Below, piece by piece: positions 16,932-63,415 of a stretch of 64,000 nucleotides of DNA (position 1 is its first letter; every line of letters begins with the position of its first letter). The stretch covers positions 64,001 through 128,000 of IMG/VR virus record IMGVR_UViG_3300037067_013660. The stretch is one strand, 5' to 3'. The position numbers and the translations under genes are program-made. The notes beneath the pieces were generated by a model. The model was not told the origin of the DNA. It did no database searches and saw only the letters and a program-made list of their open reading frames with translations. The DNA comes from a virus. Its lineage: Duplodnaviria > Caudoviricetes.

Positions 16932-17107
16932 CAGTTCGTGACCTTCGCCAGCATGAGGGCGATCTTTTCTTCCAGGTCGTCCAGCCGTTTGTGCAGCTCG
17001 CGATCTAGGTCGTCGAGTCGCTGTATCACGCCGGTCTCGTGGATCGCGATGTAGACGACGCGCTTGATTTGCTCTTCGGTTGTGCTCCACGTTGGTTTGT
17101 CGCTCAT
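16931..17107 (-). CDS. Small coiled-coil protein
   Basis: MSDKPTWST...LAKVTN, with start and stop overlapping its neighbours. Confidence 0.5.
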   Translation of the reverse strand: MSDKPTWSTTEEQIKRVVYIAIHETGVIQRLDDLDRELHKRLDDLEEKIALMLAKVTN

Positions 17108-18627: not shown

Positions 18628-18629
18628 AA

Positions 18630-20698: not shown

Positions 20699-22728
20699 CG
20701 GTCCCATAGCGTTTTCTCCGGCTTCTTTGGTTCGTCGTGTTGTTTCGTTTGTTTGGTCTTGACGCGGAATGCCTTGGGGTGACGGCGGGCGAAACGAATA
20801 CGGTGGCGTGCGATCTCGGCGTATTCTTCCTCTCGCTCGACACCGAAGAAATCAAAGCCCTCCAACATGCACGCGATGCCGGTGGTACCGCTGCCCGTAA
20901 ACGGATCCAATACCATGCCGTTGGGTGGCGTGACGAGTCGTACTAGGTAGCGCATCAGGTCCACGGGCTTGACGGTTGTGTGGGTATTGTGCCGAACCGT
21001 ATCACCGCGCTGGTATGGGTTGTCGATGGAGGTGCCGCGTCCGTCGTTGACGTTTTTGCTAGGGAAATCGTGTAACCCGAGTTCGCGTTCTCGACGTGAC
21101 GCTTTAGCGCAATACTTAAATCTTGCCAAAGCCTGATCCCCATGTACCATATTCTGCGACGTGATTTTTAATGTGACAGGCACGGCAGAGCCATTTAATT
21201 TCAAATGGTTTATCATAATTTTCATGGTGCCTGTCTGCGCGCAAAGATCCACAAACTTCACAAGGCATTTGTTTTGGGAATGCTTTTCGCGCCCGCACTC
21301 TGGCCAGTACCCGTTTTCTAAACTCAGGATCGTCGCGATAGCGATTGCGGAGATTATTTTTAATTCTGGCTGAGTTACGTGAATAGAATGTTCCTTCAAA
21401 TCGCTTGATAGATTGACCCCTGGGACTACCGAGGTTACTACAGCGTTTAGAACAGAATCTACGTGTTTTTCGATTTGGTTTGAATACTTTGCCACAGTAC
21501 TCGCAATTTCTTGGTTCCATTTGTTTATTACCTCCATAGTAGTATGAAGAATTAAATCATCATTGTGTGTAAATTGTTCGAAAAACCGGCTGGCTGTCCC
21601 CGCGTCACCATGTTGAGGACCTGCTGGTTTGCCTGTTGACGGTGCCCATATTCCGCCGCTGCCGCTGCCGCTGTGAGAGTAGCCGCTTTGCTCGTCCAAC
21701 ATTTTGACTGGACACCCATCAACGCATTCCCATTGTTCTGTTGTTTCGGTACCGTCAGGATCAGCGTATCCTCTCCTTGTCTGGGCTGTCGGTCGGAATC
21801 TCCATTGAGTTTTGTCACCCCTACCTGCATCTCCCTCTGGCCTTGTATCAGTGCGTCCACCATCAATCTTCTTTGTCCCCGCGCAACGACACCCATCTGA
21901 ATGCTGGAGCACCACGTTTGACGGCCACCGACCAGTTGTTTGCCTGCCGGTGTAGGGATGACCCGCGCCACCCCCGAACGGCTTAGAGCCGTCATCCCAC
22001 GTATTAATCGTAACGGTGTCGGTACCGACGCGACACCCATCAATGTTTAGACCACCAGTTCCCCATTTGAGGACATTCTCCGCAACCGTGCCATCCAGGG
22101 GTTTGCGCGCAAGGATGATGGGTTCATGTGCAGGTTTAAGTGCTACGTTGAAGCCCTGCCAGTCAAAAGCCTTTTGACTGGCAGGTAGTGTTACGTCGAC
22201 AGGTGTATTGGGTTTCAATCCCCACTTACCACGATCATTAGGAATGTTGCCTTGTCCTCTACGCTGCCCTATGACTTTTCGTTTCTTTTTAAGTTTTCGA
22301 TCTATAGCTTTTGATATGTCGTGTCCCTTTGGAAATCCTGACCCAAAAAGGTAACTAATGGTATCGCGTAGCTCAAACCCCGCCAACCGGATCGCGATGG
22401 CCATCAGGTCCATGGTTCTGGTACCTGCAAACGCCAACACGTAGCCGCCGGGCTTCAGGACACGCCGACACGCCCGCCACGTTTCGGGACCGGGGACAAA
22501 CCCGTCCCACTCTTTTCCCATGAAACCCTTTTTCTTGGTCTTGTGTCGTTTCCTAGATAACCACGCCGTCAACGCCGCTTCGATGTCCTCGGTCGTGTGG
22601 GCTGCTAATCCATAGGGTGGGTCGCACACGATCGCGTCGATGCTGTTGGCCGGTAGGTCGCGCAGTACATCGCGGCAATCGCCCGTCACGACTCGGAACC
22701 TTAGCTTTTTCTTTTCGTTATTTCCCAA
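20695..22728 (-). CDS. N6-A DNA methyltransferase (beta class) with an in-frame insertion of about 150 aa
   Basis: VCDPPY, GSGFPK, LKPAHEPI, HTTVKP, LDPFTGSGTT. The insertion lies between SRFFEQF and RFKYCAKAS. Confidence 0.9.
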   Translation of the reverse strand: MGNNEKKKLRFRVVTGDCRDVLRDLPANSIDAIVCDPPYGLAAHTTEDIEAALTAWLSRKRHKTKKKGFMGKEWDGFVPGPETWRACRRVLKPGGYVLAFAGTRTMDLMAIAIRLAGFELRDTISYLFGSGFPKGHDISKAIDRKLKKKRKVIGQRRGQGNIPNDRGKWGLKPNTPVDVTLPASQKAFDWQGFNVALKPAHEPIILARKPLDGTVAENVLKWGTGGLNIDGCRVGTDTVTINTWDDGSKPFGGGAGHPYTGRQTTGRWPSNVVLQHSDGCRCAGTKKIDGGRTDTRPEGDAGRGDKTQWRFRPTAQTRRGYADPDGTETTEQWECVDGCPVKMLDEQSGYSHSGSGSGGIWAPSTGKPAGPQHGDAGTASRFFEQFTHNDDLILHTTMEVINKWNQEIASTVAKYSNQIEKHVDSVLNAVVTSVVPGVNLSSDLKEHSIHVTQPELKIISAIAIATILSLENGYWPECGREKHSQNKCLVKFVDLCAQTGTMKIMINHLKLNGSAVPVTLKITSQNMVHGDQALARFKYCAKASRRERELGLHDFPSKNVNDGRGTSIDNPYQRGDTVRHNTHTTVKPVDLMRYLVRLVTPPNGMVLDPFTGSGTTGIACMLEGFDFFGVEREEEYAEIARHRIRFARRHPKAFRVKTKQTKQHDEPKKPEKTLWDR
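21116..21520 (-). CDS. HNH endonuclease nested out of frame inside the methyltransferase gene
   Basis: CEYCGKVF...FCSKRC, CEVCG...RHHENYDKPFEIKWLCRACHIKNH. It has its own GGAGGT ribosome-binding site. Confidence 0.85.
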   Translation of the reverse strand: MEPRNCEYCGKVFKPNRKTRRFCSKRCSNLGSPRGQSIKRFEGTFYSRNSARIKNNLRNRYRDDPEFRKRVLARVRARKAFPKQMPCEVCGSLRADRHHENYDKPFEIKWLCRACHIKNHVAEYGTWGSGFGKI

Positions 22729-23241
22729 ATCGACACCGATGGTTTCGATGGTTCTGGCGTGTACTTAGGTCTATTGCGTTTTACCGTCAAATCAACTTCG
22801 CCCGCGACCCAACATTTCTTAGGACAGGTTGGTGCTTTGTCTTGTCGCGGACGAGCAGCGCAGTTCCAAGAACCGCCAGAAGTGGTGTGTGTGTGTCCAT
22901 CCAACAGCACGTAACGACGTACCTGATTCCTCGTCCAGCGTATAGGTGATGACGCGGTGGTACCCCATGGCTTTGGCGGTACGCCACGCTGCAGCATAAA
23001 GAAATGATGGCACGTTGGGAGTTCCGTCGCTACAAAGTCGGTTGACCTCTAACGTAAGATCGTCGTAACTTTTGGCGACGGGACGTCCGACGGTCACGAC
23101 ACCCACGAGTTTGTCGTCGACCCAGCAGGCAAGAGAAAATTTATGGCCAACGACTGGTTGGTGGTGTCGATGATGGCGTGCTATAAAAGCGTTGGCCTCG
23201 ACTAACGAAATGGGAAACAAACGTAGGTCAGCGTACCGCAT
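22701..23241 (-). pseudogene. XF1762-family/Mom-like GNAT DNA-modification protein, frameshifted at (AC)6
   Basis: EANAFIARHHRHH, GRPVA, LEVNRLC, ITYTLDEESGTSLRAVGW. The family C-terminus GGSW..RPR.DK.PT.PK..W is in another frame (ORF 22701-22997). (AC)7 at 22885-22896 would join them. Confidence 0.8.
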
Positions 23242-24770
23242 CCCACAAACCTTTGGGTTCAGATTTGTCTTGTGCGTGGGCAGATAAAATCACGTAGGCC
23301 AAGACAACGCATTGTGGTACTTGGCCGTTGCCAATAGCTTGTAGCCGTTGGACGCGATGCCGTTTTCTCGTAGTCGTACGTTTGAGTCCTTGTTCCCACG
23401 AAACGCCATCTTGCCAAAGCGCCATGGCGTTGCGTTGCCACGCTGCCCATTCGTTTTTATTGAATGGTCGTATTTTGGTCCATCCTCGGGGCCAGCCCAT
23501 CAGGGCCTCGACCCACGTGGGATTGAGGTAACGATTTACTGCGTTGTCGTGGCGCGGCGCCACGACAGTCTCCAAGTTCGGGAATCGATCTTCTTGTGCA
23601 GTATTGTCCGTAATCTTAGCCGTCATGCTGGTACAGTTGCGAGGTGTAGGCCAAACGTCAGGTCGTTTTACTACGTCGGCTAAACACAAACTATGGCTAC
23701 TTTGTCCGTCTTTAGACAAGCGTTGATTATGTTGGTTTAGTTCTGCGTCTGGATGTTCTACCTCCTGCGTCGTTGGCCTACGCCAACGACGCAGTTGTCG
23801 TTTGGACCAGTAACGAGATTTGTCTCGGTATTTTCCACGTACCTGGATGTCAAGTGTCGTTAGCCCTGGAGCATAGCTTTCGTCGCAACTGTAGGATCGT
23901 GGAGTTGGCCATAACGATACAGCCGTAGGTAGATCTAGAGAGTTGCGATCATGGCAAGCAGGACTTGCGTTGGATTTATGATCGTGGGCCGTTGGCGTAG
24001 GCCAACGGCCCACGTCTTCGTCTACGGCGACGACCTCTTCCAAGTTACTCCTGTGCCCTTTCGCTTCGTCCTGTCGAGACCTGTCAGGTCTCGACATTTG
24101 AGTTCTGGGAGTAGGCCACGGACGCATGCGACTAGGTGTAAGACTGCCTTGGATCATATCCTCGGCTTCTTCTCTCGACAACTTACCGGCGTCAACCATG
24201 GTACGCATTTGACCAATTATACCTTCAGATCTAGCTTGCGTTGCGGTAGGGGTAGGCCATTGATCTGGCATGCAAATGACACGCGCCAAACTTTTCTCTG
24301 CCGTACCTTCGCGTACCATTTGAAGCGTTTTATCGCTCGTCCCGTCTTGGCTGGCTTTTGGCCTACGCCAAAAGCCAGCCAGACTGTTATCGTTTGGTAC
24401 ACCAAACCCAGAGACGATTTCTTTTATGCAACGCTCCTGTATGGTACGCTCCCAGACAACCCCATTCCGCATCGTACCCCAACGAGGCCAAGTCAGCGAT
24501 GACGGTTCCGAAGTAGCCGTGCGACGGCGCAAGAAGTCCTGGTACGTTTTCCAAGAGTGCGTGGGGGGGGGCATACTTTGCGAAGAACGTCGGCCGTCGC
24601 GGGCCACATGTTACGTTCGTCGTCAGCGGCTCGCTGTCGTCCCGCGGCGCTAAAGGGCTGGCAGGGAAATCCAGCAGCAACGACCTCGACCATGCCTTTA
24701 TACGCTTTCGCGTACTTTTTGCAGAACTCGCGGACGTCACCAAATATCGGAGCTTCGGGGAGGATGCCAT
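23228..24770 (-). CDS. C5-cytosine methyltransferase second chain (WPTP repeats plus motifs IX and X), overlapping the first chain and frameshifted at C9
   Basis: SWKT...TWPRWGTMRNG, seven W(P/R)(T/R)P units, LNPTWVEALMGWPRGWT, RLQAIGNGQVP. Confidence 0.75.
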
Positions 24771-24915
24771 CTAGAATCCTTTGGTTCAGAATTTTTTGGC
24801 AATGTTCATTGTACTCAACATATCCGACGGGACGCCAGCCAAGCAAATGGGTACCGAGTAGACCACCACCTGCGCCCGTAAACAACGACAACTCTCTAAC
24901 GACTTGTTTCGTCAT
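24387..24915 (-). pseudogene. C5-cytosine methyltransferase catalytic chain (motifs I-VIII), frameshifted at C9
   Basis: LSLFTGAGG and GFPCQPFS lie in one frame; LLENVPGL and HKRNRLW lie in another. C8 at 24563-24571 restores the frame. Confidence 0.85.
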
Positions 24916-24917
24916 GA

Positions 24918-25349
24918 CTACTTTGGTGTTGCTTTTTCTGGCAGTTCGGTTGAGGCCGAAAGCACCTGCAGGATAGTTTCGATTTTGTCCGCGTTGTGTT
25001 CTACGTCGATCATCATGACGTGTACGTATCGGAGCGCTTGCATCAGTGCGTGCATTACGTGTTTGGGCGGTACGCCAAGCAACAGCCCGCAGTCAACCGC
25101 CGCCATGGTTTTCAGCAGCGCTACGCGGTACTGCAATAAATTGTCGTGTGTCCGGTAGCACCACGTCGGCACCGTCGCGTTGACTTGGTGTACGGTTTCA
25201 TGTGGGCACTGATGTGTTAGGTGGCCAGCGGTTTTGTCTACGTCGAGGCGATGGATCCGAACGTTAGGTCCGCACGCCCGTACGACCCGCTGGCCCAACG
25301 CCATCAACTCGGGCGTCGGTTCAGCGGTACAGAAAAGCGCGACGTTCAA
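24918..25349 (-). CDS. Hypothetical protein (start uncertain)
   Basis: Fills an operon gap; the TTG start overlaps the upstream stop. Confidence 0.45.
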   Translation of the reverse strand: MNVALFCTAEPTPELMALGQRVVRACGPNVRIHRLDVDKTAGHLTHQCPHETVHQVNATVPTWCYRTHDNLLQYRVALLKTMAAVDCGLLLGVPPKHVMHALMQALRYVHVMMIDVEHNADKIETILQVLSASTELPEKATPK

Positions 25350-25897
25350 ATCAGTCGCTCCATGCGTGCGTACCGACTCAGTACCTGCAGGATGACGGCG
25401 GGGTTTTCGATGTGACCCTTGCCGGAATCGCCGACCGGCACGTACTGTTGATCCAAGTTGTTCCACAGCAGCATCATGGGGATCAGGATTTTGTTGTTGG
25501 CGGGATCGATTCTGATCTGGATCCCCACGACGATGCTGTAGCGCGCCACCACGCAGATGGGCGTCCATTCAAACGTGCCGGGGATCGTCTGCAAGATGTC
25601 GGCGCGCGTCAACACGACCGACAGGTACGTAGCCTTGGCCTCCTCGGGCATCTCGGTATATTGGGCGTCGTCGATGAGCGGGACGCCGAATACCCGCGCC
25701 ACGTTATTGGCCAAGGGCCGCAGGTACCGGACTTCAAAACGCCCGACCCAGTCGTGTTGTTCTGGGTGTTCGCATGGGTAGAACTGCGTCAGTTCTTTGA
25801 ACGGTCGGATGATCTGGATGCCCTCGGGCGGTGCATAGTCGTCGGGCAAATTGGTTTCCTGCACGTAACGATTTGGGGGTTGTTCCGTCATCGCCAT
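25346..25897 (-). CDS. Hypothetical protein
   Basis: 183-aa ORF within the operon. Confidence 0.65.
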   Translation of the reverse strand: MAMTEQPPNRYVQETNLPDDYAPPEGIQIIRPFKELTQFYPCEHPEQHDWVGRFEVRYLRPLANNVARVFGVPLIDDAQYTEMPEEAKATYLSVVLTRADILQTIPGTFEWTPICVVARYSIVVGIQIRIDPANNKILIPMMLLWNNLDQQYVPVGDSGKGHIENPAVILQVLSRYARMERLI

Positions 25898-26724
25898 AAT
25901 GACTTCTGTGTCATCTCCTCGGTAGACCTAGCTCGTTGTTTTCGTCCGGGTTTCGGGTCGTGTCCCAACGCCACGGCTTTCCTGATGCGTTTTACCGCGT
26001 GTCGGTACCAGTGTTCGTCCAGCTCGATGCCTATGAATCTTCTACCCGTCAGCACGGCCGCCACGCCTGTAGATCCTGAACCCATGAATGGATCCAACAC
26101 GATGTCGCCTGGTTTCGTATGGAGCTGGATAAAGTGTGCTGCCAGTCGCCAGGGTTTCTCTGTTGGGTGTTGCGTGGCACTCGGGATAATCTTCTTGATG
26201 CCGTAGTCGCCGGGTCGGATGATGTTTTCGATCTTGTTGGTTTCGTCGTACCACTTGGCCTTGGCGCCTGGTTTTTGTCCTACCAATACGAACTCGTAGC
26301 TACGCCGGTAATGCCAACCCATACCCATGGAAGATTTATCCCACACGACCGCGTGTTTGAACCCGATGATTTTGTCCATCATGAGGCTCCAACGGGCGAA
26401 CTGTGGATCGGGTCCTCCTCCTCCTCCTGCGCAACAGCAACAGATTGCCCCCCCCTTCGGAAGAATCGGCGTGATGGCCTTGAGCATCTTTTTAGTTACG
26501 GCGTTGGCTTGGTCAAAATCATCATTTGCAATAGGCCGGGCTTCTTCGTTTTGACCCGTAGACCTCCCCAGGGCTTTCTCCCAGTTGGCGATTAGGTCAC
26601 CGTCGTTGTTGTTGTGTCCATAAGGCGGATCCGTAAAGACAAAATCGATACGTTTCAACGTCGGCATGACGTCAAGGCAGTCGGCAAGCCATAGTTTTGC
26701 TTTGTTGTCGATCTTCTCAAACAT
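25888..26724 (-). CDS. N6-A/N4-C DNA methyltransferase, intein-free paralog of 18630-20698
   Basis: TDPPY, HPTEK, LDPFMGSG. In-frame G8 tract at 26448-26455. Confidence 0.92.
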   Translation of the reverse strand: MFEKIDNKAKLWLADCLDVMPTLKRIDFVFTDPPYGHNNNDGDLIANWEKALGRSTGQNEEARPIANDDFDQANAVTKKMLKAITPILPKGGAICCCCAGGGGGPDPQFARWSLMMDKIIGFKHAVVWDKSSMGMGWHYRRSYEFVLVGQKPGAKAKWYDETNKIENIIRPGDYGIKKIIPSATQHPTEKPWRLAAHFIQLHTKPGDIVLDPFMGSGSTGVAAVLTGRRFIGIELDEHWYRHAVKRIRKAVALGHDPKPGRKQRARSTEEMTQKSLWR

Positions 26725-27190
26725 CTCGTCGTCTCGGGTAAATCTTGACTTCACGGGGTTTGTTCGTGACGTTGCCTTCGCTGTCTTGGATGTCTTGGTC
26801 CTCGAAACCAAACGACGCCCACACGTCATTCTGTCCAGGTCCTTTGACCACTACTTCGCCCGCGAACGCCGGAGCCGATTGTTTCGCCGTAAACTGCTTC
26901 GTTATGACGCCCTGGTCGTCCAGCGCCATCATGTAGGTTCTGAAGTGACCGTAGTCGTTGTGGTCCACTTGCCACGCCAACACCAGGACGTCTGTATCGC
27001 TGATCCAGAAACTCCACGCTTGGTTTTTCTTGGGGTCGAACTTTACCTCGCTGAGTTTCTTGCCGCTGAACTTCGGCTGAAACGGGCGACCGGCAGCAAA
27101 CTGATCACACGCCTTACGTTTCAGTCCCTTGGATTTTTCGCACTTCCCCTTAACCGTAAAGAACTTTCGACATTCACGACACAGCGGCAT
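26717..27190 (-). CDS. Hypothetical protein with N-terminal Cys cluster
   Basis: MPLCRECRKFF...C...C. Confidence 0.6.
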   Translation of the reverse strand: MPLCRECRKFFTVKGKCEKSKGLKRKACDQFAAGRPFQPKFSGKKLSEVKFDPKKNQAWSFWISDTDVLVLAWQVDHNDYGHFRTYMMALDDQGVITKQFTAKQSAPAFAGEVVVKGPGQNDVWASFGFEDQDIQDSEGNVTNKPREVKIYPRRRDV

Positions 27191-27195
27191 GGCGG

Positions 27196-27768
27196 TTAGC
27201 TCTTCTTCAGGATGGTTTCGATGATTTTCTGTTCGTGTGGCGAAAACTCTTGCTGGTGCGGTACCTCCACGACCTTTAGGTCGCGTTGGCTCGGTTCGTG
27301 TTTGGCGGCCGCCTGTTTGATGCGTTCGGTCTCGTCGATGATTTCCTGGTAGAAGTGGTCGCCCAGTAGTTTTTCGTAAGCGTCGACCTTGATCCACGCT
27401 TTGGTCTTGTCGCGGTTATAAAAACCCTCGGTTGACGTGAGTCCGTGGATCTGGTAGTTGCCTCGTTGGGTTTGGCGGATCGCCAGGATCGGTTTGATGG
27501 CGAGGCGCTCGGTCGCGGGCGTCACGGGGCCGGTGGGCGCGTCGGTGCCGCCGACCTCCGCGTAAAACCCACGACACAGTTTCGCGACGTCGAGGCCGAG
27601 TCGCTTACGGTATTCGTCGGCCCCGTAGGGTTTGGGTGTTTCGCCCGGTTTCTTTACCGGTACGTTGCCGAACAGCCGGGCCGCCGCGACGTCAAAGTCA
27701 CTCGGTTTCAGCAGCCGCCATAATTCGATCCAAGGTGGCCGGATCAACTCCATCAGTAGGTCGGTCAT
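27196..27768 (-). CDS. Hypothetical protein
   Basis: 190-aa ORF within the operon. Confidence 0.65.
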   Translation of the reverse strand: MTDLLMELIRPPWIELWRLLKPSDFDVAAARLFGNVPVKKPGETPKPYGADEYRKRLGLDVAKLCRGFYAEVGGTDAPTGPVTPATERLAIKPILAIRQTQRGNYQIHGLTSTEGFYNRDKTKAWIKVDAYEKLLGDHFYQEIIDETERIKQAAAKHEPSQRDLKVVEVPHQQEFSPHEQKIIETILKKS

Positions 27769-28423
27769 TCGTCAGGTCTCCAAATTCTGCTTCCACGACG
27801 TTGCCATAAAAATCCCGTAGTCGTCCGTCGATGAGGAAGCGGTGATCGACGCACACGATTTTCTCTACTTCATCAACACGGGTCCGCACCATGATGAGTT
27901 TTTCGATAATGTTGAGTTCCTGGGTACCGTCGGCCGCAACTTCACTGACGCGACACCGCAGCGTAATGCTGTACTGCCCGTCGGGCCACGACTCGGCCTT
28001 TAGGAAGTCGTTCAGTTGGTAGGGGTTGACGCCTTCGGTCGAGAGCAACGGCACGCACGCCGGGTCCTCCACGATTTTGATCTCGCTGCCAAACTTTTCA
28101 ACCGCGTACGCCACCACCACGATGCCGTCGGCCAGCAGTGCTTCCAGCGTCATGAAGTCGGTCGAGACGAACGACACGGCCGTGAGGTTGTGGGGATCGT
28201 CCTGTAGGTCTTTGGTTCTGACCACGTAGCTGACGAGCCGTTGGATCTGTCGGCCGTGTTGGCCATCGGGTAGGCGTTCGACGAACAGGTAGTAGTCGCC
28301 TACCTGAACGTCGTGGTCATCGACCCGCAGGTCAAACGAGCGTTCGCCTCGTGCGATCAAGTCAAACATTTCGGCGTCGCAATAACGACGTATGGTTTGG
28401 GGCATCAGCATTTTGGTCCCCAC
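27698..28423 (-). CDS. ASCH/DUF3850 (PUA-like) domain protein
   Basis: FDLIARGERSFDLRVDDHDVQVGDYYLFVE...GRQIQRLVSYV. Confidence 0.75.
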   Translation of the reverse strand: MGTKMLMPQTIRRYCDAEMFDLIARGERSFDLRVDDHDVQVGDYYLFVERLPDGQHGRQIQRLVSYVVRTKDLQDDPHNLTAVSFVSTDFMTLEALLADGIVVVAYAVEKFGSEIKIVEDPACVPLLSTEGVNPYQLNDFLKAESWPDGQYSITLRCRVSEVAADGTQELNIIEKLIMVRTRVDEVEKIVCVDHRFLIDGRLRDFYGNVVEAEFGDLTNDRPTDGVDPATLDRIMAAAETE

Positions 28424-29916
28424 AAAGATTTGGTTGGAGGTTTTGGTTCAGGTCGTTTTGTTTTATCTGGTCTGTTTTCTCTAGCGTACCGGATCCTAGC
28501 CTTCGCGATCTCGACGTACTCGGGTTCTTGTTCAATGCCGTAGAAATTACGTTTGAGCGTCACGGCTGCGACGCCTGTGGTACCGCTACCACAAAATGGG
28601 TCTAATACGAGGTCGTTGGGTCTGGAACCCAGCGTTACGAGGTAGTGCATGAGCTTGACGGACTTAACGGTCGGATGGGAATTGGCATGGAGGGGCCGCC
28701 CCTCCATGCCATCGACCGTGTGAAGTTTGGGATCTACTTTTGTTGCGGTATTGAAACCGTCGCCGTATACTTCGCGCTTGGCTCGTTTTTGTAAGTCGTC
28801 TAGTCCAGCGTTCTTTTCTCGTCGCGATGGCTTCGCTACATACAGAAATGGGAATGTTGCTTGTGCGGATTCGGGCAAGTCACCGATGCGTTCAGCGAAC
28901 CAAGCGTCTAGGTCGAAGTACCGCGAGACAGAACCATTGTTATTTGCAAACCTTTGCATCGCGGTTTTGTCTGTAACGTCTTTGCCGTTTCCGAAACATC
29001 CACCGAACGACGCCTTACCCCCACCATGAGACTTAGTTGGACCTGCTCCGCGCAAAGCGTCGTCCTGTACCAGTACGTTGGCGTGAACACGACCAGACGG
29101 TTGTACTACCGTGGGTCTATCGGATCCTGCTTTATTCATTCCCCAAACTTGACCAGAAACGTCTGTTTCGCGTTTATTACGATTCATTACACGACCGACT
29201 TGTGTTGCGTCGGCCGATGGGTTTACGGGTATTCTACAATCGTCCAGCCAGGTGCAACCTTTTCTGTTGACCAGCGTCTGATCAATGTAGGTTGTTTCGG
29301 TAATGGGTTTCATCACCACCACAATATTTTCTAGGTTCGGCCGTGGCTGGTAGCCAGCGTAACTACCGTTAAGGCGTTTGGCTTCTTCGGTAGCAGGGGC
29401 AGTAACAAGTCTAGTACCTCTTTTATGTCTAGCACTACGATCTGTTCTTCCTTCACCTGATCGCCACGCATCATAGTTATCGCCGCCGCCAGACGGTACT
29501 TCTGCAACCACCTCTCGTTCCACTCCCGCTCGTTTGTCTAGGTGCTTGCTAATGTTTTTAGCTTTGCCGAATCCTTGAGAATGAATCCAGTAAATAGATG
29601 TATAGCCAATGACAAAACCGGCTTTTTGCAACCGTAGGATCAGCTTCGCCAGACAGTCTTGTCTAGGGGAACACATGATGAACGCGAAGGCGCCGGGCTT
29701 CAGGACGCGCAAACACTCCCGCCAGATCTTTGTGCTGGGAACGTCCACGTCCCACTTGGCCGCCATGAAGCCACCGCTGGCTTTGGTTCTCTTACCCCGT
29801 GGGCTCACGGGTGTCAGGCCGTAGGGCGGATCCGTCACGATGCAGTCAACGGTTTCGTCGGGAAACCGTTTCAGCACGTCCAGGCAGTTGCCTAGTTTGA
29901 CCCGAGCCTTCAGCAT
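28405..29916 (-). CDS. N6-A DNA methyltransferase (beta class)
   Basis: IVTDPPY, HPTVKS, VLDPFCGSGTT. Confidence 0.92.
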   Translation of the reverse strand: MLKARVKLGNCLDVLKRFPDETVDCIVTDPPYGLTPVSPRGKRTKASGGFMAAKWDVDVPSTKIWRECLRVLKPGAFAFIMCSPRQDCLAKLILRLQKAGFVIGYTSIYWIHSQGFGKAKNISKHLDKRAGVEREVVAEVPSGGGDNYDAWRSGEGRTDRSARHKRGTRLVTAPATEEAKRLNGSYAGYQPRPNLENIVVVMKPITETTYIDQTLVNRKGCTWLDDCRIPVNPSADATQVGRVMNRNKRETDVSGQVWGMNKAGSDRPTVVQPSGRVHANVLVQDDALRGAGPTKSHGGGKASFGGCFGNGKDVTDKTAMQRFANNNGSVSRYFDLDAWFAERIGDLPESAQATFPFLYVAKPSRREKNAGLDDLQKRAKREVYGDGFNTATKVDPKLHTVDGMEGRPLHANSHPTVKSVKLMHYLVTLGSRPNDLVLDPFCGSGTTGVAAVTLKRNFYGIEQEPEYVEIAKARIRYARENRPDKTKRPEPKPPTKSLWGPKC

Positions 29917-32900
29917 TGCGTGTATCCACAGGTACGGCAGCACGGACACTTGCCCGGTATGATGACGAGCGTACAGTTACCGCACCCCGGACAATAATCG
30001 TACGGTAGCTTGATGCCGTCTTGCTCTGCCTTTTTGATTTCGGTTTCGATTTCGGTACGGTATTCGTCTACGTCGTGACCGTTGCCAGGATCGCCCTCCA
30101 GCACGTAGCGACTGATTTGATCCAGTTTCGTAACGTCGCCGCCGCAGGTCCGCAACTCGTCGAGCAACTCTTTCATCGGCTGAATACCAAACGGTAGGTT
30201 CGCGACGGGGAAATCGGCTTCAAGGTACCGGTTCAGTATCTTCGCGATGGCGTCAGGCATCGACCGTTTGGCCTCGGGTCCAAACCCTACTTGACCACGG
30301 CCCAAGATGTCGATCAATTGATCGCGGATCAATTCGAGCCGCATCTGCTGATTGATCTTCTGGTCGTTGGGGAACCGTAGGATCATGCTCATGAGGCGAC
30401 CGATTGCTTCGCCGTCGGCCGACGCATCACCCTTACCCGTGATGACGAAGACGTCGATGGGGTCACCAGTTTGTGGATCGTGTCGGATCGTTAGGTGGAT
30501 GGTACCGATGGGCGACTCTTCCGAGAACGTTACGCTCATGCCTGCGTTGGGACGTGGGCGTACGACGGCGGTTTCGGATGACGCTTCAACCACTTGCACG
30601 GGTACGGGCTTGTCGGTGTAGAGGACCTGTACGTCGCGGCTGCTGTCGCGGTAAACGGTTCCGCCCTTACACCCTAGTTCCCACATCAACATGTAGGTAT
30701 AGGCTACGTCCTTGACGGTCGCGTTGGCGGGCAAATTCGCAGTTTTTGATATCGCCGAATCAACCCACCGTTGCATCGCGGCTTGGGTTTTGACGTGGTG
30801 CTCGGGCGTGATGCCCCGCTGTGCCGTCACGACGTACAGAGGCCATTTTTGTGGTTCCGTACCGAACTGTTGGAAGATTTGATCGACGACCCCAGCTTTT
30901 TCTTTCACGATGCCGATGCGTGTCGTGCTGGTATACTGGAGGTCGAAGAACGGTTCGCATCCCGTCGACGTATTCATGATGGCGGCTGTACTTCCAGTCG
31001 GCGCAATGGTGGTGACGGTGACGTTACGGATGCCATGCTTGCGAACCAACGCCCGTACGTCTTTGGGCATCTGCTTCATGAAGCCGCTGTTGAGGAAATG
31101 GTCCACTTGAAACCGTGGGAACGCACCGCGTTCTTTTGCCAACTGGACCGACGCCTTGTACGCCGTCGTCGTGAAGACCCGCATCAACTCGTCGGTAAAC
31201 GCGAGGGCGTCGGCAGATCCGTAGCACAGACCTAACCGCATCAAGGCGTCGCCGTAACCGAGGATCCCGAGTCCTATGCGCCGTTCCGACAACTGTTGCT
31301 TCTTTACGGCGTCGTCGTGGTAGACGTTCAGGTCGTTGACGTTGTCGAGGAACCGGACGCCCATCTGTACGTCAGACTTTAGGGTTTCCCAATCAAACGC
31401 TTGCTTGGCTTGCTCGGTTGTCTGGACGGTGTGGGGCAATGTCGTGGTCGTGACGTAACGCCCGAGGTTCAGGTGTGCTAAATTGCACACTGCGTTGTCC
31501 GGAAGTACCTGTTCGCTGCAGTTCGACAATATGATGCCGTTGCCGATGAACGTACTGGTCGTGGTATTGACGACATCGTACACGTCGGCGTCTCCGGCAA
31601 ATTCGCACGATACCATTTTCGCGGTACCGCCGGCTACCTGTACGATAGATTCTTTCGTCAGGTCTTTAATCGCTACCTTCCCTGTATTCGTCAGTACTCT
31701 GTGGTCGGGTGTGGCTTGTAGCGTGTACGTCTGTCCTTCGGGTTGGTCTGCGCGCAGTACCAACGTTACGGTTGGTTTATGTCCAGTGAAGACGACTCGT
31801 TCTGCTTTATCGGATCGGTGTTGTGGCGAAATTGTGGTCAGTAATTTGTCTGCTCCGTGCTGTCGCGCGTCTACGGCGACCAGACAGTTTTGTTCCCCTG
31901 CCATATCTTTTACGCGGCGGTGGTACAGATTTCCGTCGGGCCGCGCGCACGTCACCATGGTATCGCCCGTAACGCAGGGATTAGTTCCGATCAACGGTGC
32001 GTAGTACCACGAGTTCGACATTTGGTTTGCCCGCTCCATGAAGATGATGCCAGGCTCACCCGCTTCCCACGCGTGCTGGATGATGCGGTTCCACAAATCC
32101 CTGGCTTTGATGGTCCGGTATACTACGATGGGTTTTTTCAATTCGTCGCGCCACTGCCAGATGTTGCCGTTCCACTGGTCGTCGTAACCGGGAGCGTCGG
32201 TGTCGGGGAATACGAGATCCCAGTCAGCGTTTTGCTGCACCGCCCGCATGAAATCTTCGGTCAGCAGGATGCTGACGTTGGCGTTGCACAGCAAATTCTT
32301 GTTCATGCTGAAGGTTTTGCCGTCGGGTAACGGGATTTCTTCCCGCAGCGACTTGACGTCTACCAATTCCAATACGTCTGGGTGCCAGCACCACTGACAG
32401 AGCATCGCGGCGCCGCGCCGGCTTCCACCTTGTTCTACCGCGCCGGTGATTTGGCTAAACTGTTCCGCCCACGAGACGCTACCACTGGACCTGCCGTTGA
32501 CCTTGCGGACGACCGTGCCTTTGGGCCGTAGTACTGATAGCGGCGTACCGACGCCCCCGCCCCGCGAGTACGTTTCGAACAACCGCCCCCAGTGTTCCGT
32601 GATACCGCGACGACTGTCTTGCGTGATGTTGAAGACGTAGCAGTTGAACAGCGTGAGGTCGTAGCCGGGGCGTCCTAACCCCGAGAGGATCCGGCCAGCC
32701 GGTACGAACCGTTCCGCCACCATCGCGGTCTCCACGGCTTCGGCGAATTTCTTGCGGTCCTTTTTCTTCTCCACGGTACTGATGGCCGTGGCGACGCGGC
32801 GGCAAATGTCTGGGTAGGTTTTTTCCGTCACGTAGTCCAAACGGCTACGGGGGATCTTTGGTTCCGTGGTGCCGTCGGTATCGAGCTTGACGTCGTAGGT

Positions 32901-61451: not shown

Positions 61452-61994
61452 TCAACGGTACTTCGGCCAGTTTTCCGTTTCGCGTGGGTGGCGCGCTCGC
61501 ATTGGGTAGCGTTCAGGGTGCTGTAAATGACGTGCACAAAGGTCTGCATCTAAGGCAGGCCAGTAGAAGCCACCATCACCGATGAGTTGGACGTCTCGGA
61601 TCTCGTCGTCGGTGCCGTAGCGAAAAATTGGGTACGTGGTAAAATCGATCCAGTAGAGTTCTGTGTCGTAGTACAGCCAAAGACCCTTTGCCATAACCGC
61701 GTAAACAAACAAACGCGATCTATTGGCTGTTCTGTGGGCAGCAAAAAATGTACGCCAGGCGTCCATGATGACGTCATAGTGTTGCTCTACATAACGTTTT
61801 GACTTCCTGATGTCTGCGGCTTTTACGGCGGATTCTTTATGTTTTAGAGATACAGCACCAGCCTTAACTTTACCAAGCCACCACATAACAGTGCCACTAG
61901 GAGTGTCGACGTGTACGTGGGCTACGCTTCCTTCTGTACTATTAAAATAAAAACGAAAGCCGCCGACATTGATGGTAGTGATGGTGGGTGACAT
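61452..61994 (-). CDS. DUF4160-DUF2442 fusion (toxin-antitoxin-like)
   Basis: N-half GGFRFYFNSTE..AHVHV...WRTFF; C-half YPIFRYGTDDEI.DVQL...GFYWPALDADL...PERYPM. Promoter TTGACA-17-TAGGCT at 62018-62046. Confidence 0.75.
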   Translation of the reverse strand: MSPTITTINVGGFRFYFNSTEGSVAHVHVDTPSGTVMWWLGKVKAGAVSLKHKESAVKAADIRKSKRYVEQHYDVIMDAWRTFFAAHRTANRSRLFVYAVMAKGLWLYYDTELYWIDFTTYPIFRYGTDDEIRDVQLIGDGGFYWPALDADLCARHLQHPERYPMRARHPRETENWPKYR

Positions 61995-62087
61995 TAATAG
62001 TACCTCTTCATTTCGTTAGCCTACTACGAAGCGCAGGGTCTGTCAATACCTATTATTCCTTACCCACTAGGTAGGATATGATTGGGC

Positions 62088-62116
62088 TTGACACCCCAGT
62101 CAGCGCCCGCTAGGAT
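62088..62116 (+). promoter_or_regulatory. Sigma70-type promoter TTGACA-17-TAGGAT for the leader/tRNA operon
   Basis: Consensus -35 with 17-nt spacer. Confidence 0.7.
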
Positions 62117-62138
62117 GCAGGCGACAAGGAAACGACCG

Positions 62139-62282
62139 ATGCGAACCCGAACCACCACCCAGGCCAAAGAGAAGCGCGTGACAGTGCGCCGTCTGGACTG
62201 GTTTGCCTCCTCACCGTGCAGTATTCCATCGTATCCCGATAATATGCATGGTCTTACCAAGGAGAACAGCCGGGCGGCATAG
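62139..62282 (+). CDS. Putative leader peptide (47 aa) of the tRNA operon
   Basis: AAGGA ribosome-binding site, tandem TAG TAA stops, all 20 amino acids, 36 different codons. Confidence 0.7.
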   Translation: MRTRTTTQAKEKRVTVRRLDWFASSPCSIPSYPDNMHGLTKENSRAA

Positions 62283-62304
62283 TAAGACCGAAAGAAACTG
62301 AACC

Positions 62305-62341
62305 AGGCCGCCCAGCGAAAGCTCGGTGGCCTTTTTGTTTT
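62305..62341 (+). terminator. Intrinsic terminator/attenuator
   Basis: AGGCCGCC-c-AGC GAAA GCT-c-GGTGGCCT followed by TTTTGTTTT. Confidence 0.85.
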
Positions 62342-62400
62342 CCGGGTGCTGTTTTGCAGTGCGGAACAGTAGCGTAGCACGGTGCGAATCCGTGGCCCGG
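62342..62400 (+). ncRNA. tRNA-like remnant (acceptor stem plus T arm)
   Basis: CCGGGT...CACGG TGCGAAT CCGTG GCCCGG, with no proper D or anticodon arm. Confidence 0.35.
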
Positions 62401-62619
62401 CATCGCCCGTGGAAAGCACGTGCGGGTTATGTTGGTTGGTGGCGACGAGCGTTGGTCCCGTGACGTGGTGGAAGCGGTAGCGGCGGCGCGGTCTCGACTG
62501 CGGTGCGGTGGTGTCGTAAGGCACTGCACGGTAGAGTTGAAAAACAAATAGTAAGGAGGTGATGTTTGCAGGAATTCCGTGGACACGTTCCGCTCCGTTG
62601 ATATGGGCGTGTCCACACT

Positions 62620-62690
62620 GGAGCTATGGTGTAGTGGCAACACGTTGGACCGTCTATCCGAAACCCCGAGTTCGATTCTCGGTAGCTCCG
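62620..62690 (+). tRNA. tRNA-Asp(GTC) with C33 and U37
   Basis: Cloverleaf; anticodon arm TTGGA CCGTCTA TCCGA. Confidence 0.8.
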
Positions 62691-62695
62691 TTGAC

Positions 62696-62770
62696 GGGGA
62701 TATAGTGTAATCTGGAAACACGGGTGGCCTGATCCGAACCACCAATTGCGGTTCAAATCCGATATCCCTG
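62696..62770 (+). tRNA. Atypical or pseudo tRNA with 11-nt anticodon loop
   Basis: GGTGG CCTGATCCGAA CCACC; bulged T stem. Confidence 0.5.
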
Positions 62771-62774
62771 ATTT

Positions 62775-62846
62775 GGACTCTTGGTGTAATCGGCAGCACA
62801 GGAGACTGAAGATCTCTTAGTCCAGATTCGATTTCTGGGGGGTCCA
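62775..62846 (+). tRNA. tRNA-Phe(GAA)
   Basis: GGAGA CTGAAGA TCTCT. Confidence 0.85.
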
Positions 62847-62848
62847 TT

Positions 62849-62920
62849 GCCTCGGTAGCCTAGTGGTCAGGCACCAGTCCGTTAAACTGTTTTACGCGAG
62901 TTCGACTCTCGCCCGAGGCG
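62849..62920 (+). tRNA. tRNA-Asn(GTT) with C33
   Basis: CCAGT CCGTTAA ACTGT. Confidence 0.85.
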
Positions 62921-62931
62921 TTAGGTATTTT

Positions 62932-63002
62932 GGAGAGATCGTCCAATGGTAGGACCCCAGACCGTAACTCTGCTAATCTAGGTTCGAGTCCTGCCCTCGT
63001 CA
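62932..63002 (+). tRNA. tRNA with GTA (Tyr) anticodon, C33, short variable loop and weak acceptor stem
   Basis: CCAGA CCGTAAC TCTGC; the body resembles tRNA-Gln. Confidence 0.6.
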
Positions 63003-63007
63003 TCTAC

Positions 63008-63080
63008 GTGCCTGTAGTTCAATTGGCAGAACGATCGCTTGATGGGCGATAGGTTGGGGGTTCGACGCCCTCCAGGCACA
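63008..63080 (+). tRNA. tRNA-Ile(GAT) with G37 and G38
   Basis: ATCGC TTGATGG GCGAT. Confidence 0.85.
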
Positions 63081-63084
63081 TTTT

Positions 63085-63165
63085 GGCTGGTACCGTGCAG
63101 GGCACAAACTAGGTCCGAACCCTAGGGCGGTCTAACGGCCGGGAGTTCGATTCTTCTACCAGCCT
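63085..63165 (+). tRNA. tRNA-Ser(CGA) with C33 and long variable arm
   Basis: CTAGG TCCGAAC CCTAG. Confidence 0.7.
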
Positions 63166-63172
63166 TTGTTTT

Positions 63173-63257
63173 GGAAGGATGGCTGAGTGGTAAGGGACCG
63201 GATTGCTAATCCGAGGTCATCGTAATGGATGCGCGTGTTCAATCCACGCCACCTCCT
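63173..63257 (+). tRNA. tRNA-Ser(GCT)
   Basis: CCGGA TTGCTAA TCCGA; long variable arm; imperfect acceptor stem. Confidence 0.7.
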
Positions 63258-63258
63258 T

Positions 63259-63342
63259 GGAGGACGAGATGCAAGGCGCGCAAGCTGGTTGGAAGCCAGT
63301 TAGATCTGAAAAGATCGCCGAGTTCGATTCTCGGGCCTTCCG
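63259..63342 (+). tRNA. tRNA-Ser(GGA)
   Basis: GCTGG TTGGAAG CCAGT; long variable arm. Confidence 0.75.
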
Positions 63343-63343
63343 T

Positions 63344-63415
63344 GCGACCGTAGTGTAATTGGTAGCACGTAAGTCTTCCAAACTTGCGGTACGAGTTCAA
63401 GTCTCGTCGGTTGCT
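63344..63415 (+). tRNA. tRNA-Gly(TCC)
   Basis: TAAGT CTTCCAA ACTTG. Confidence 0.9.

What the first reader, a model, noticed from the sequence alone, without database searches (positions are those of the whole stretch)
62620..63342. Systematic anticodon-loop changes in the phage tRNAs, including C33 in all three GUN tRNAs
Seen: the near-invariant U33 is C in Asp(GTC), Asn(GTT), Tyr(GTA) and Ser(CGA). Asp has U37, Ile(GAT) has G37-G38 and Phe has G37. Established: tRNA-guanine transglycosylase recognises U33-G34-U35 to insert queuine precursors, GUN tRNAs are the colicin E5 targets, t6A needs A37, and phage tRNA loop mutations have been proposed to evade anticodon nucleases. Inference: these tRNAs avoid host modifications and the nucleases that read them, which fits the upstream sensor.
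Basis: partly seen in the sequence, partly recalled or inferred. Interest (0 to 1): 0.72.

Follow-up and report, generated by a model that had tools for sequence, protein, structure and literature searches.

The report
Phage tRNAs with C33 anticodon loops
An uncultured large phage carries a tRNA gene cluster in which five of about thirteen tRNAs have C instead of the almost universal U before the anticodon. The trait proved widespread in phage tRNAs and very rare in bacterial ones, and it is not specific to the queuosine (Asp/Asn/Tyr) family as first proposed.

Summary
In the cluster at 62620-63415, C33 is present in Asp(GUC), Asn(GUU), a weak Tyr(GUA)-like unit and a Ser(CGA)-like unit. Asp has U37, Ile(GAU) has G37-G38 and Phe has G37. 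A fifth C33 tRNA, Leu(UAG), lies outside the window.

Five C33 of 13 compares with 2.4% C33 in 574 randomly seeded viral tRNAs (P about 1e-5). The well-scoring tRNAs keep almost perfect stems, so this is not simple decay.

The queuosine-centred reading is only partly supported:
- Published data show that colicin E5 cuts a U33C substrate as well as the wild type.
- In 71 other phage loci with a C33 tRNA-Asn, the other GUN tRNAs carry C33 no more often (8%) than non-GUN tRNAs (8.6%).
- C33 shows no link to the wobble base or to G+C content.
- C33 is a published anti-determinant for E. coli t6A synthesis, and TGT needs U33-G34-U35. Loss of Q34 and t6A37 is therefore a likely consequence.

Best reading: these are working phage tRNAs with maintained loop variants that escape host enzymes reading the anticodon loop; which enzyme is unknown. 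No relatives carrying the cluster were found and expression is untested. Earlier follow-ups of this scan reported C33-rich phage tRNA sets on many other genomes.

The parts
62620..62690 (+). tRNA-Asp(GUC). Loop CCGUCUA (C33, U37). G73 and G10 present, no encoded CCA.
   Evidence: (55.9 bits, no mismatched pair). Identical in the independent contig L269.
62696..62770 (+). Deviant tRNA-like unit. It has either an 11-base anticodon loop (CCUGAUCCGAA) on a 5-bp stem or a 7-base loop CCUGAUC on a poor stem. The T stem is weak.
   Evidence: 35.2 bits, loop insertion; relaxed ARAGORN only.
62775..62846 (+). tRNA-Phe(GAA). Loop CUGAAGA (U33, G37).
   Evidence: (53.1 bits).
62849..62920 (+). tRNA-Asn(GUU). 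Loop CCGUUAA (C33). G73 present. The 31-39 pair is U-A, so bases 36-40 read UAAAC.
   Evidence: (58.5 bits, one C27-U43 mismatch).
62932..63002 (+). Tyr(GUA)-like unit. Loop CCGUAAC (C33, C38). A73 present. It has a short variable loop, unlike bacterial tRNA-Tyr, and four mismatched stem pairs.
   Evidence: 32.8 bits; relaxed ARAGORN only; 37 of 42 distinct viral Tyr tRNAs have the long arm.
63008..63080 (+). tRNA-Ile(GAU). Loop UUGAUGG (U33, G37, G38).
   Evidence: (61.1 bits).
63085..63164 (+). Ser(CGA)-like class II unit. Loop UCCGAAC (C33, C38). The acceptor and anticodon stems are perfect, the D stem has 3 bp and the variable arm is long.
   Evidence: tRNA-Sec model only, 25.9 bits, below cut-off.
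63173..63257 (+). tRNA-Ser(GCU). Loop UUGCUAA (U33). Three mismatches in the acceptor stem.
   Evidence: (27 bits, just under cut-off).
63258..63343 (+). tRNA-Ser(GGA). Loop UUGGAAG (U33, G38). Irregular D arm.
   Evidence: (Sec model, 18.6 bits).
63344..63415 (+). tRNA-Gly(UCC). Loop CUUCCAA, fully canonical.
   Evidence: (65 bits).

Best explanation
These are working tRNA genes of a large uncultured phage. Several carry maintained substitutions at loop positions 33, 37 and 38: C33 in Asp, Asn and Leu(UAG), and probably in the Tyr-like and Ser(CGA)-like units; U37 in Asp; G37 in Ile and Phe.

The changes leave the cloverleaf and the anticodon intact. They remove bases that host enzymes read in the anticodon loop. 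By published determinants, the C33 GUN tRNAs should not receive queuosine, Asn (C33) and Ile (G37) should not receive t6A37, and Phe (G37) should not receive i6A37.

The selective benefit is inferred: escape from a host tRNA-targeting activity, either a nuclease or modifier that reads U33/A37, or one that needs those modifications. The enzyme is unidentified.

The trait belongs to a phage-wide C33 phenomenon and is not special to the queuosine family.

Shown: the bases, the intact folds, the excess over background, and the phage-versus-cell contrast. Inferred: lack of modification, expression, charging and the benefit.
For: 1. Loops and folds are documented. The eight well-scoring tRNAs (51.8-65 bits) show 2 mismatched pairs in about 168 stem pairs. 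Five of them deviate at positions 33, 37 or 38. Changes are therefore concentrated in the loop, which is not the pattern of decay.
2. C33 background in viral tRNAs is 14 of 574 (2.4%). No locus with 8 or more tRNAs exceeded 2 loop deviants (position 33 not U, or position 37 not a purine). Here 5 of 13 carry C33, P = 9e-6.
3. C33 tRNA-Asn is common and intact in phages. One high-GC lineage with a conserved tRNA order keeps the CCGUUAA loop while its stems have diverged throughout.
4. The cellular contrast is strong. The same C33 Asn pattern gave 9 hits in 802 bacterial genomes, of which only 1 is a real tRNA. The U33 form was found in 4 of 4 genomes.
5. G+C content does not predict C33.
6. C33 blocks t6A synthesis by E. 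coli TsaBCDE (PMC8887486), and TGT requires U33-G34-U35 (PMC8136771).
7. The phage uses mostly NAC codons (65-77%), which G34 reads directly.
8. There are precedents for phage tRNA variants that defeat host tRNases: T5 Lys/Thr/Asn against PARIS AriB (PMC12409363) and the hypothesis of PMC10264068.
Against: - No relative carrying this cluster was found, so conservation of these particular C33 bases could not be tested.
- There is no expression or charging evidence.
- Half of the cluster (unit 2, Tyr-like and the three Ser units) is structurally deviant. Some decay is therefore likely, and two of the five C33 bases sit in weak units.
- The only two anticodon nucleases for which U33C has been tested, colicin E5 and gamma-toxin, are not affected by it.
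- In related phages, C33 and U33 alternate in orthologous tRNAs. That fits an arms race but equally fits near-neutral drift.
- The host is unknown, so host tRNAs and host defence genes could not be compared.
Confidence: 0.5

Rival explanations
1. Queuosine-specific adaptation. C33 was selected in Asp, Asn and Tyr together so that the host TGT cannot insert preQ1/Q, and so that nucleases aimed at GUN or Q tRNAs, such as colicin E5-type toxins, miss them.
For: All three GUN tRNAs held have C32-C33-G34-U35. The hypergeometric P for 3 of 3 GUN among 5 C33 of 13 is 0.035. TGT needs U33-G34-U35. The phage prefers NAC codons.
Against: - Colicin E5 cleaves the U-to-C variant as well as the wild type and only needs a pyrimidine there (PMC1635277).
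- C33 also occurs in Leu(UAG) and Ser(CGA) here.
- In 71 phage loci with a C33 Asn, the other GUN tRNAs carry C33 in 6 of 75, against 49 of 567 for non-GUN tRNAs.
- In an unbiased viral sample only 1 of 90 GUN tRNAs has C33.
- The C33 rate is the same for A, C, G or U at position 34 (P = 0.93).
- No TGT/DpdA or QueC gene is present in the 197 kb held.
- The P value is post hoc.
Confidence: 0.1
2. Relaxed selection or decay. The cluster is partly redundant with host tRNAs. U33C is the mildest tolerated change and drifts in, and several members are already pseudogenes.
For: - Five of ten units are deviant. Unit 2 has an 11-base loop and a 3-bp T stem. The Tyr-like unit has 4 mismatches and lacks the long arm. 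Ser(GCU) has 3 acceptor mismatches. Ser(GGA) has an irregular D arm. Ser(CGA) scores low.
- C33 and U33 alternate among orthologous tRNAs of related phages.
- C33 is spread over nearly all anticodons without a pattern.
Against: - Asp, Asn and Leu(UAG) have flawless or near-flawless stems and normal T loops, yet carry C33.
- Deviations cluster at 33/37/38 and not in the 42 stem bases.
- C33 Asn persists across 52 different, mostly well-paired anticodon arms.
- Five of 13 is far above the phage background, which already includes any drift.
Confidence: 0.22
3. A translational tuning role. C33 alters the U-turn and so changes decoding speed, wobble range or frame maintenance for particular phage codons, with no link to host defence.
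For: From established tRNA structure, U33 makes the U-turn that presents the anticodon, and initiator tRNAs of multicellular eukaryotes work with C33 (PMC8887486). C33 almost always follows C32 (53 of 68) and is somewhat enriched with C36 (10% against 4-5%, P = 0.006). That hints at a structural context.
Against: There is no codon-usage feature that singles out the codons read by the C33 tRNAs. The idea gives no reason why it should be confined to phages.
Confidence: 0.1
4. Decoys. The deviant units (Tyr-like, unit 2, some Ser) are not charged at all and act as bait or inhibitors for host tRNA-binding nucleases.
For: The Tyr-like unit lacks the long variable arm that bacterial TyrRS uses (established knowledge; one search shows the long arm in 37 of 42 viral Tyr tRNAs). 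Unit 2 has no normal anticodon loop. PMC12409363 raises the possibility that overexpressed viral tRNAs inhibit AriB.
Against: There is no direct evidence. Asp and Asn carry their synthetase identity bases (G73, the anticodon, and G10 in Asp; read) and look chargeable.
Confidence: 0.08

Closest known systems
Nuclease-insensitive phage tRNAs: the hypothesis of van den Berg et al. 2023 (PMC10264068) and the T5 tRNA-Lys(UUU)/Thr(UGU)/Asn(GUU) variants that neutralise PARIS AriB (PMC12409363, PMC11464382)
   Same: Both are phage-encoded tRNAs that keep the anticodon and cloverleaf but differ from the cellular norm in the anticodon arm. A tRNA-Asn is among them. Here bases 36-40 of Asn read UAAAC where the E. 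coli AriB targets share UAAUC, the same U39-to-A difference that protects T5 tRNA-Lys.
   Different: The T5 changes are in the anticodon stem (39, 41), at a mapped cleavage site, and resistance was shown experimentally. Here the hallmark is C33 (plus U37/G37). No nuclease is known to be blocked by C33. PMC10264068 does not mention position 33. Nothing has been tested.
C33 initiator tRNA-Met of multicellular eukaryotes
   Same: This is a natural, functional tRNA with C instead of U33. C33 acts as an anti-determinant for t6A synthesis by bacterial TsaBCDE and yeast KEOPS (PMC8887486).
   Different: It is an initiator, not an elongator. It is eukaryotic and a single tRNA species. Here C33 is in elongator tRNAs of a bacterial virus, in five different isoacceptors.
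Colicin E5 substrates (tRNA Tyr, His, Asn, Asp with U-Q/G-U)
   Same: The same GUN anticodon family is involved.
   Different: E5 needs only a pyrimidine before GU and cuts the C variant equally well (PMC1635277). C33 therefore gives no escape.
C33-rich tRNA sets of other uncultured phages, reported by earlier follow-ups of this scan (unpublished AI notes, e.g. e1-5632801, e1-5377812, e1-5896967)
   Same: These are large phages in which 20-35% of intact tRNAs carry C33, mostly as C32-C33, spread over many anticodons. Here the figure is 5 of 13.
   Different: The isoacceptors affected differ in each phage. This phage has no detectable relatives carrying the cluster, and about half of its cluster is structurally deviant.

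Membership tests
tRNA (Rfam RF00005) | Cloverleaf scoring at or above the gathering score of 29 bits | tested here: met
   Asp 55.9, Asn 58.5, Phe 53.1, Ile 61.1, Gly 65, unit 2 35.2 and Tyr-like 32.8 bits. Not met by Ser(GCU) at 27 bits, or by Ser(CGA) and Ser(GGA), which match only the tRNA-Sec model below its cut-off.
tRNA (Rfam RF00005) | U at position 33 and a purine at position 37 (near-universal features, not required by the model) | tested here: not met
   C33 in Asp, Asn, the Tyr-like unit, Ser(CGA) and, outside the window, Leu(UAG). U37 in Asp.
Substrates of bacterial tRNA-guanine transglycosylase (queuosine) | U33-G34-U35 in a 7-base anticodon loop | tested here: not met
   All three GUN tRNAs read C33-G34-U35. 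The determinant is as reviewed in PMC8136771. Actual modification cannot be tested here.
Substrates of bacterial t6A37 synthesis (TsaBCDE) | U36-A37, with U33 (C33 is an anti-determinant in E. coli) | tested here: not met
   Asn has C33 and Ile has G37. Only Ser(GCU) keeps U33, U36 and A37 (PMC8887486).
Nuclease-insensitive phage tRNAs (T5 versus PARIS type) | The phage tRNA differs from the host tRNA at the nuclease's recognition or cleavage site | tested here: inconclusive
   The host is unknown (one search gave no close host match). Relative to the universal consensus the loops differ. Asn has A39 where the E. coli AriB targets have U39.
Nuclease-insensitive phage tRNAs (T5 versus PARIS type) | Demonstrated resistance to cleavage and rescue of infection | not testable with these tools
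   This needs biochemistry and a cultured host. Published tests of U33C with colicin E5 and gamma-toxin show no protection.
tRNA pseudogenes | Disrupted stems or a missing T loop, with no selection on pairing | tested here: inconclusive
   Not met by Asp, Asn, Phe, Ile, Gly and Leu(UAG), which have 0-1 mismatch each. Partly met by unit 2, the Tyr-like unit and Ser(GCU), which have 3-4 mismatches or an 11-base loop.

The most novel reading that the evidence does not exclude
The phage carries a deliberately 'unmodifiable' tRNA set. By changing positions 33, 37 and 38 it makes most of its tRNAs non-substrates for the host enzymes that install Q34, t6A37 and i6A37. Its translation would then become independent of host modification status and invisible to defence nucleases or modifiers that read those bases or modifications. 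C33 would be a general, unpublished phage counter-defence mark.
Probability: 0.2. Interest if true: 0.75.

Novelty: new variant of a known kind. Interest (0 to 1): 0.45.

Why it matters
U33 is one of the most conserved bases in biology. If C33 is a selected phage trait, two possibilities follow. There may be a class of host enzymes, either defence nucleases or modification enzymes, whose action on tRNA hinges on U33. Alternatively, phages may benefit from tRNAs that stay unmodified.

Both can be tested with simple C33/U33 swaps. The negative result here also matters. The appealing queuosine and colicin E5 story does not hold up against published enzymology or against a survey of other phages. 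Effort should go to a general U33-dependent mechanism.

Tried and rejected
1. Close relatives, to test conservation:
- Megablast and blastn of the cluster against GenBank phages gave no match.
- An exact Asn pattern in IMG/VR gave none.
- Protein-seeded searches gave one 54%-identical fragment without tRNAs and nothing for two neighbouring proteins.
- A metagenome pattern scan found only a 1.3-kb, 99.9%-identical copy of the same phage.

2. Host inference from the IS605-type transposase: best hits are 42% identical or less and scattered over phyla, so this was uninformative.

3. Link to 7-deazaguanine DNA modification: no TGT/DpdA or QueC in the 197 kb held.

4. Phage RNA repair or CCA-adding enzymes as signs of a tRNA arms race: no RtcB, RNA ligase or CCA-adding family match. 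The record is only about 56% complete.

5. G+C pressure as the cause of C33: rejected.

6. Recent duplication as a common origin of the three GUN tRNAs: rejected, since only T-arm similarity is shared.

8. Archaeal host, suggested by G37 in Phe and the short-arm Tyr: rejected. The Tyr-like unit has G1-C72, and the surrounding signals are bacterial-type (a sigma-70-like promoter, Shine-Dalgarno sequences, a hairpin terminator).

Full report
**Setting**

The window is bases 64001-128000 of a 196,895-base IMG/VR virus record that CheckV rates about 56% complete. The record is therefore a fragment of a large phage. The window carries replication and nucleotide-metabolism genes: helicases, a DnaB-like helicase, ribonucleotide reductase and six DNA methyltransferase-like ORFs. 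The tRNA cluster lies near the window's end. A DUF4160/DUF2442 fusion gene runs divergently upstream and HNH endonuclease genes lie downstream.

**What is in the sequence**

ARAGORN at default settings calls seven tRNAs. Rfam's tRNA model adds two more units above its gathering score, plus weaker class II units. Relaxed ARAGORN draws ten cloverleaves in a row between 62620 and 63415.

- Asp(GUC): CCGUCUA.
- Asn(GUU): CCGUUAA.
- Tyr(GUA)-like: CCGUAAC.
- Ser(CGA)-like: UCCGAAC.
- Ile(GAU): UUGAUGG.
- Phe(GAA): CUGAAGA.

Ser(GCU), Ser(GGA) and Gly(UCC) have U33. None of the ten encodes CCA.

Four further tRNA-type genes lie 8-11 kb beyond the window. One of them, Leu(UAG), also has C33 (CCUAGGA). 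The count is therefore five C33 in about thirteen tRNA genes, and C33 is not confined to GUN anticodons.

A 1315-base contig from a different metagenome assembly matches 61581-62895 with one mismatch, at 62540 outside any tRNA. The Asp loop is therefore not an assembly artefact.

**Quality of the genes**

Asp, Phe, Asn, Ile and Gly score 53-65 bits, with at most one mismatched pair (C27-U43 in Asn). Leu(UAG), Ala(UGC) and Leu(UAA) outside the window score 52-55 bits.

The other five units are deviant:
- Unit 2 (62696-62770) has an 11-base anticodon loop and a 3-bp T stem.
- The Tyr-like unit has four mismatched pairs and a short variable loop, where bacterial tRNA-Tyr has a long arm. Thirty-seven of 42 distinct viral Tyr tRNAs in my samples have the long arm.
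- Ser(GCU) has three acceptor mismatches.
- Ser(GGA) has an irregular D arm.
- Ser(CGA) has perfect acceptor and anticodon stems but matches only the tRNA-Sec model, below its cut-off.

Two of the five C33 bases thus sit in weak calls. Three sit in tRNAs that look fully functional.

**Is it more than chance?**

I seeded an unbiased sample of viral tRNA clusters with a D-arm word that does not involve the anticodon loop. ARAGORN on the 117 loci gave 574 tRNAs: 553 U33, 14 C33, 4 A33 and 3 G33. One of 90 GUN tRNAs had C33. No locus with eight or more tRNAs had more than two loop deviants, meaning position 33 not U or position 37 not a purine.

Against that 2.4% background, five of 13 has P = 9e-6. 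Three of the eight well-scoring genes has P = 7e-4.

The other loop oddities are also above background:
- 81% of viral NNA-anticodon tRNAs keep A37-A38. Here 1 of 5 does.
- 94% of NNU tRNAs keep U33 plus A37. Here 1 of 3 does.
- U37 in Asp recurs in other phages: 4 of 33 Asp loops in my samples have a pyrimidine at 37.
- G37 in Phe is fairly common, at 5 of 19.

**Is it tied to queuosine?**

This was the specific claim, and it makes a testable prediction. If avoidance of TGT or of Q-directed nucleases drives C33, then phages whose Asn has C33 should tend to have C33 in Asp, Tyr and His as well.

It yielded 71 loci with a genuine tRNA-Asn(GUU) reading CCGUUAA. These comprise 68 distinct sequences and 52 distinct anticodon arms, whose stems keep mostly Watson-Crick pairs of many types.

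After removing duplicates, the other GUN tRNAs in those loci carry C33 in 6 of 75 and the non-GUN tRNAs in 49 of 567. There is no coordination.

Pooling 1207 distinct viral tRNAs, the C33 rate is 5-8% whichever base is at position 34 (P = 0.93). It is mildly higher with C32 and with C36. Within this phage, the three-of-three GUN pattern has a post hoc hypergeometric P of 0.035.

Published enzymology also removes colicin E5 from the picture. The U-to-C change before GU leaves a tRNA-Tyr minihelix as susceptible as the wild type, because the enzyme needs only a pyrimidine there (PMC1635277). K. lactis gamma-toxin is also unaffected by U33C (PMC2275089).

The 197 kb held has no TGT/DpdA or QueC homologue. 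A link to phage 7-deazaguanine metabolism is therefore not supported either.

**What C33 is likely to do**

Two published determinants do bear on it. TGT requires U33-G34-U35 in a seven-base loop (reviewed in PMC8136771). E. coli TsaBCDE fails to place t6A on a U33C tRNA (PMC8887486). The predicted consequences, none of them measured, are:
- Asp, Asn and the Tyr-like unit are not expected to receive Q34.
- Asn is not expected to receive t6A37.
- Ile (G37) cannot receive t6A37.
- Phe (G37) cannot receive i6A37.

The phage's own codon usage favours NAC over NAU (65-77%), and unmodified G34 reads NAC directly.

These consequences cannot explain C33 in Leu(UAG) or Ser(CGA). Nor can they explain it in the Val, Glu, Gly, Ala and Pro tRNAs of other phages. 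A more general U33-dependent factor is needed, and none is known.

**Phage-specific, and neither a G+C effect nor simple decay**

The same C33 Asn pattern gave 9 hits in 802 bacterial genomes (401 Pseudomonadota and 401 Actinomycetota). This is no more than the reversed-pattern control. Only one hit is a real tRNA. The U33 form was present in each of four genomes checked.

G+C content of the locus does not predict C33 in either sample.

In one high-GC phage lineage with a conserved tRNA order, the Asn genes all read CCGUUAA although their stems have diverged throughout. Asp, Glu, Lys, Val and Arg(CCU) orthologues switch between C33 and U33 from phage to phage. That lability fits an arms race, but it also fits near-neutrality.

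**Verdict on mechanism**

The best-supported reading (about 0.5) is that Asp, Asn and Leu(UAG), and possibly the Tyr-like and Ser(CGA) units, are working tRNAs. Their loop variants are maintained because they take the tRNA out of reach of host enzymes that read the anticodon loop. Loss of Q34 and t6A37 would be a predicted consequence. The decisive enzyme is unidentified.

The rivals are:
- Decay or drift under relaxed selection, about 0.2. This is clearly part of the picture for the deviant units.
- A queuosine-specific adaptation, about 0.1.
- Translational tuning, about 0.1.
- Decoys, under 0.1.

**What could not be done**

No relative carrying this cluster exists in the collections searched. 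The host is unknown. No RNA-repair or CCA-adding genes were found in the part of the genome held.

**Comparison with what is known**

The idea that phage tRNAs carry anticodon-arm changes to evade host tRNases is published (PMC10264068). It has been shown for T5 tRNAs against PARIS AriB (PMC12409363). Position 33 is not mentioned in PMC10264068. Full-text searches for C33/U33/U33C together with phage tRNA found no paper on it.

Earlier follow-ups of this scan have reported C33-rich tRNA sets in many other uncultured phages. My independent samples agree with their main claims on phage enrichment, spread over many anticodons and recurrent C33 in Ile(GAU). This case is therefore another instance of a recurrent, apparently unpublished variant of a known kind, not a new system. 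Its particular GUN twist is not supported as a general principle.

Noticed in passing
window 62696-62770: A tRNA-like unit sits between Asp and Phe. It has a good acceptor and D arm, an 11-base anticodon loop (CCUGAUCCGAA) and a 3-bp T stem. It scores 35 bits on the tRNA model. It may be a decaying tRNA or a non-decoding tRNA-like RNA.
   Followed up: partly
window 62088-62341: A promoter-like site (TTGACA-17-TAGGAT) is followed by a 47-codon ORF (62139-62282) and then a strong hairpin with a T run (62305-62341, -20 kcal/mol). Transcripts from this promoter would have to read through a terminator to reach the tRNAs. No other promoter-like site was found before 62620.
   Followed up: partly
window 62562-62705: A second 47-codon ORF has a strong Shine-Dalgarno sequence (AAGGAGG) and starts 58 bases before tRNA-Asp. 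It reads through the whole Asp gene. A hairpin with a long perfect stem (about 62578-62617) abuts the tRNA's 5' end.
   Followed up: no
window 62849-62920: Bases 36-40 of tRNA-Asn read UAAAC where the E. coli AriB targets share UAAUC. The same U39-to-A change makes tRNA-Lys resistant to PARIS AriB in published work (PMC12409363).
   Followed up: partly
window 15648-29949: Six ORFs matching DNA methyltransferase families lie within 15 kb (15648-17090, 18630-20456, 20695-22728, 23228-24607, 28405-29949 and neighbours). This is an unusually dense set.
   Followed up: no
window 10761-12011: An IS200/IS605-type transposase-like gene (phrog_506, E 2e-102) lies inside the phage replication module. 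Its closest bacterial homologues are only 42% identical or less.
   Followed up: partly
L264 (G782:C1:1125906-1128935), tRNA at 1469-1543: This is the only real cellular tRNA-Asn(GUU) with C33 among 802 bacterial genomes searched. It is in an actinobacterial genome. Whether it lies in a prophage was not checked.
   Followed up: no
L069:8134-8206 and other viral loci: tRNA-Asp with a pyrimidine at position 37 (loops CUGUCUA, CUGUCUC) recurs in unrelated phage contigs, in 4 of 33 Asp loops sampled. The U37 seen here is therefore a recurrent phage variant and not a one-off.
   Followed up: partly
L269 (Ga0172380_10266058, 1315 bases): A contig from another metagenome assembly is 99.92% identical to window 61581-62895. 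The same phage therefore occurs in a second data set.
   Followed up: yes
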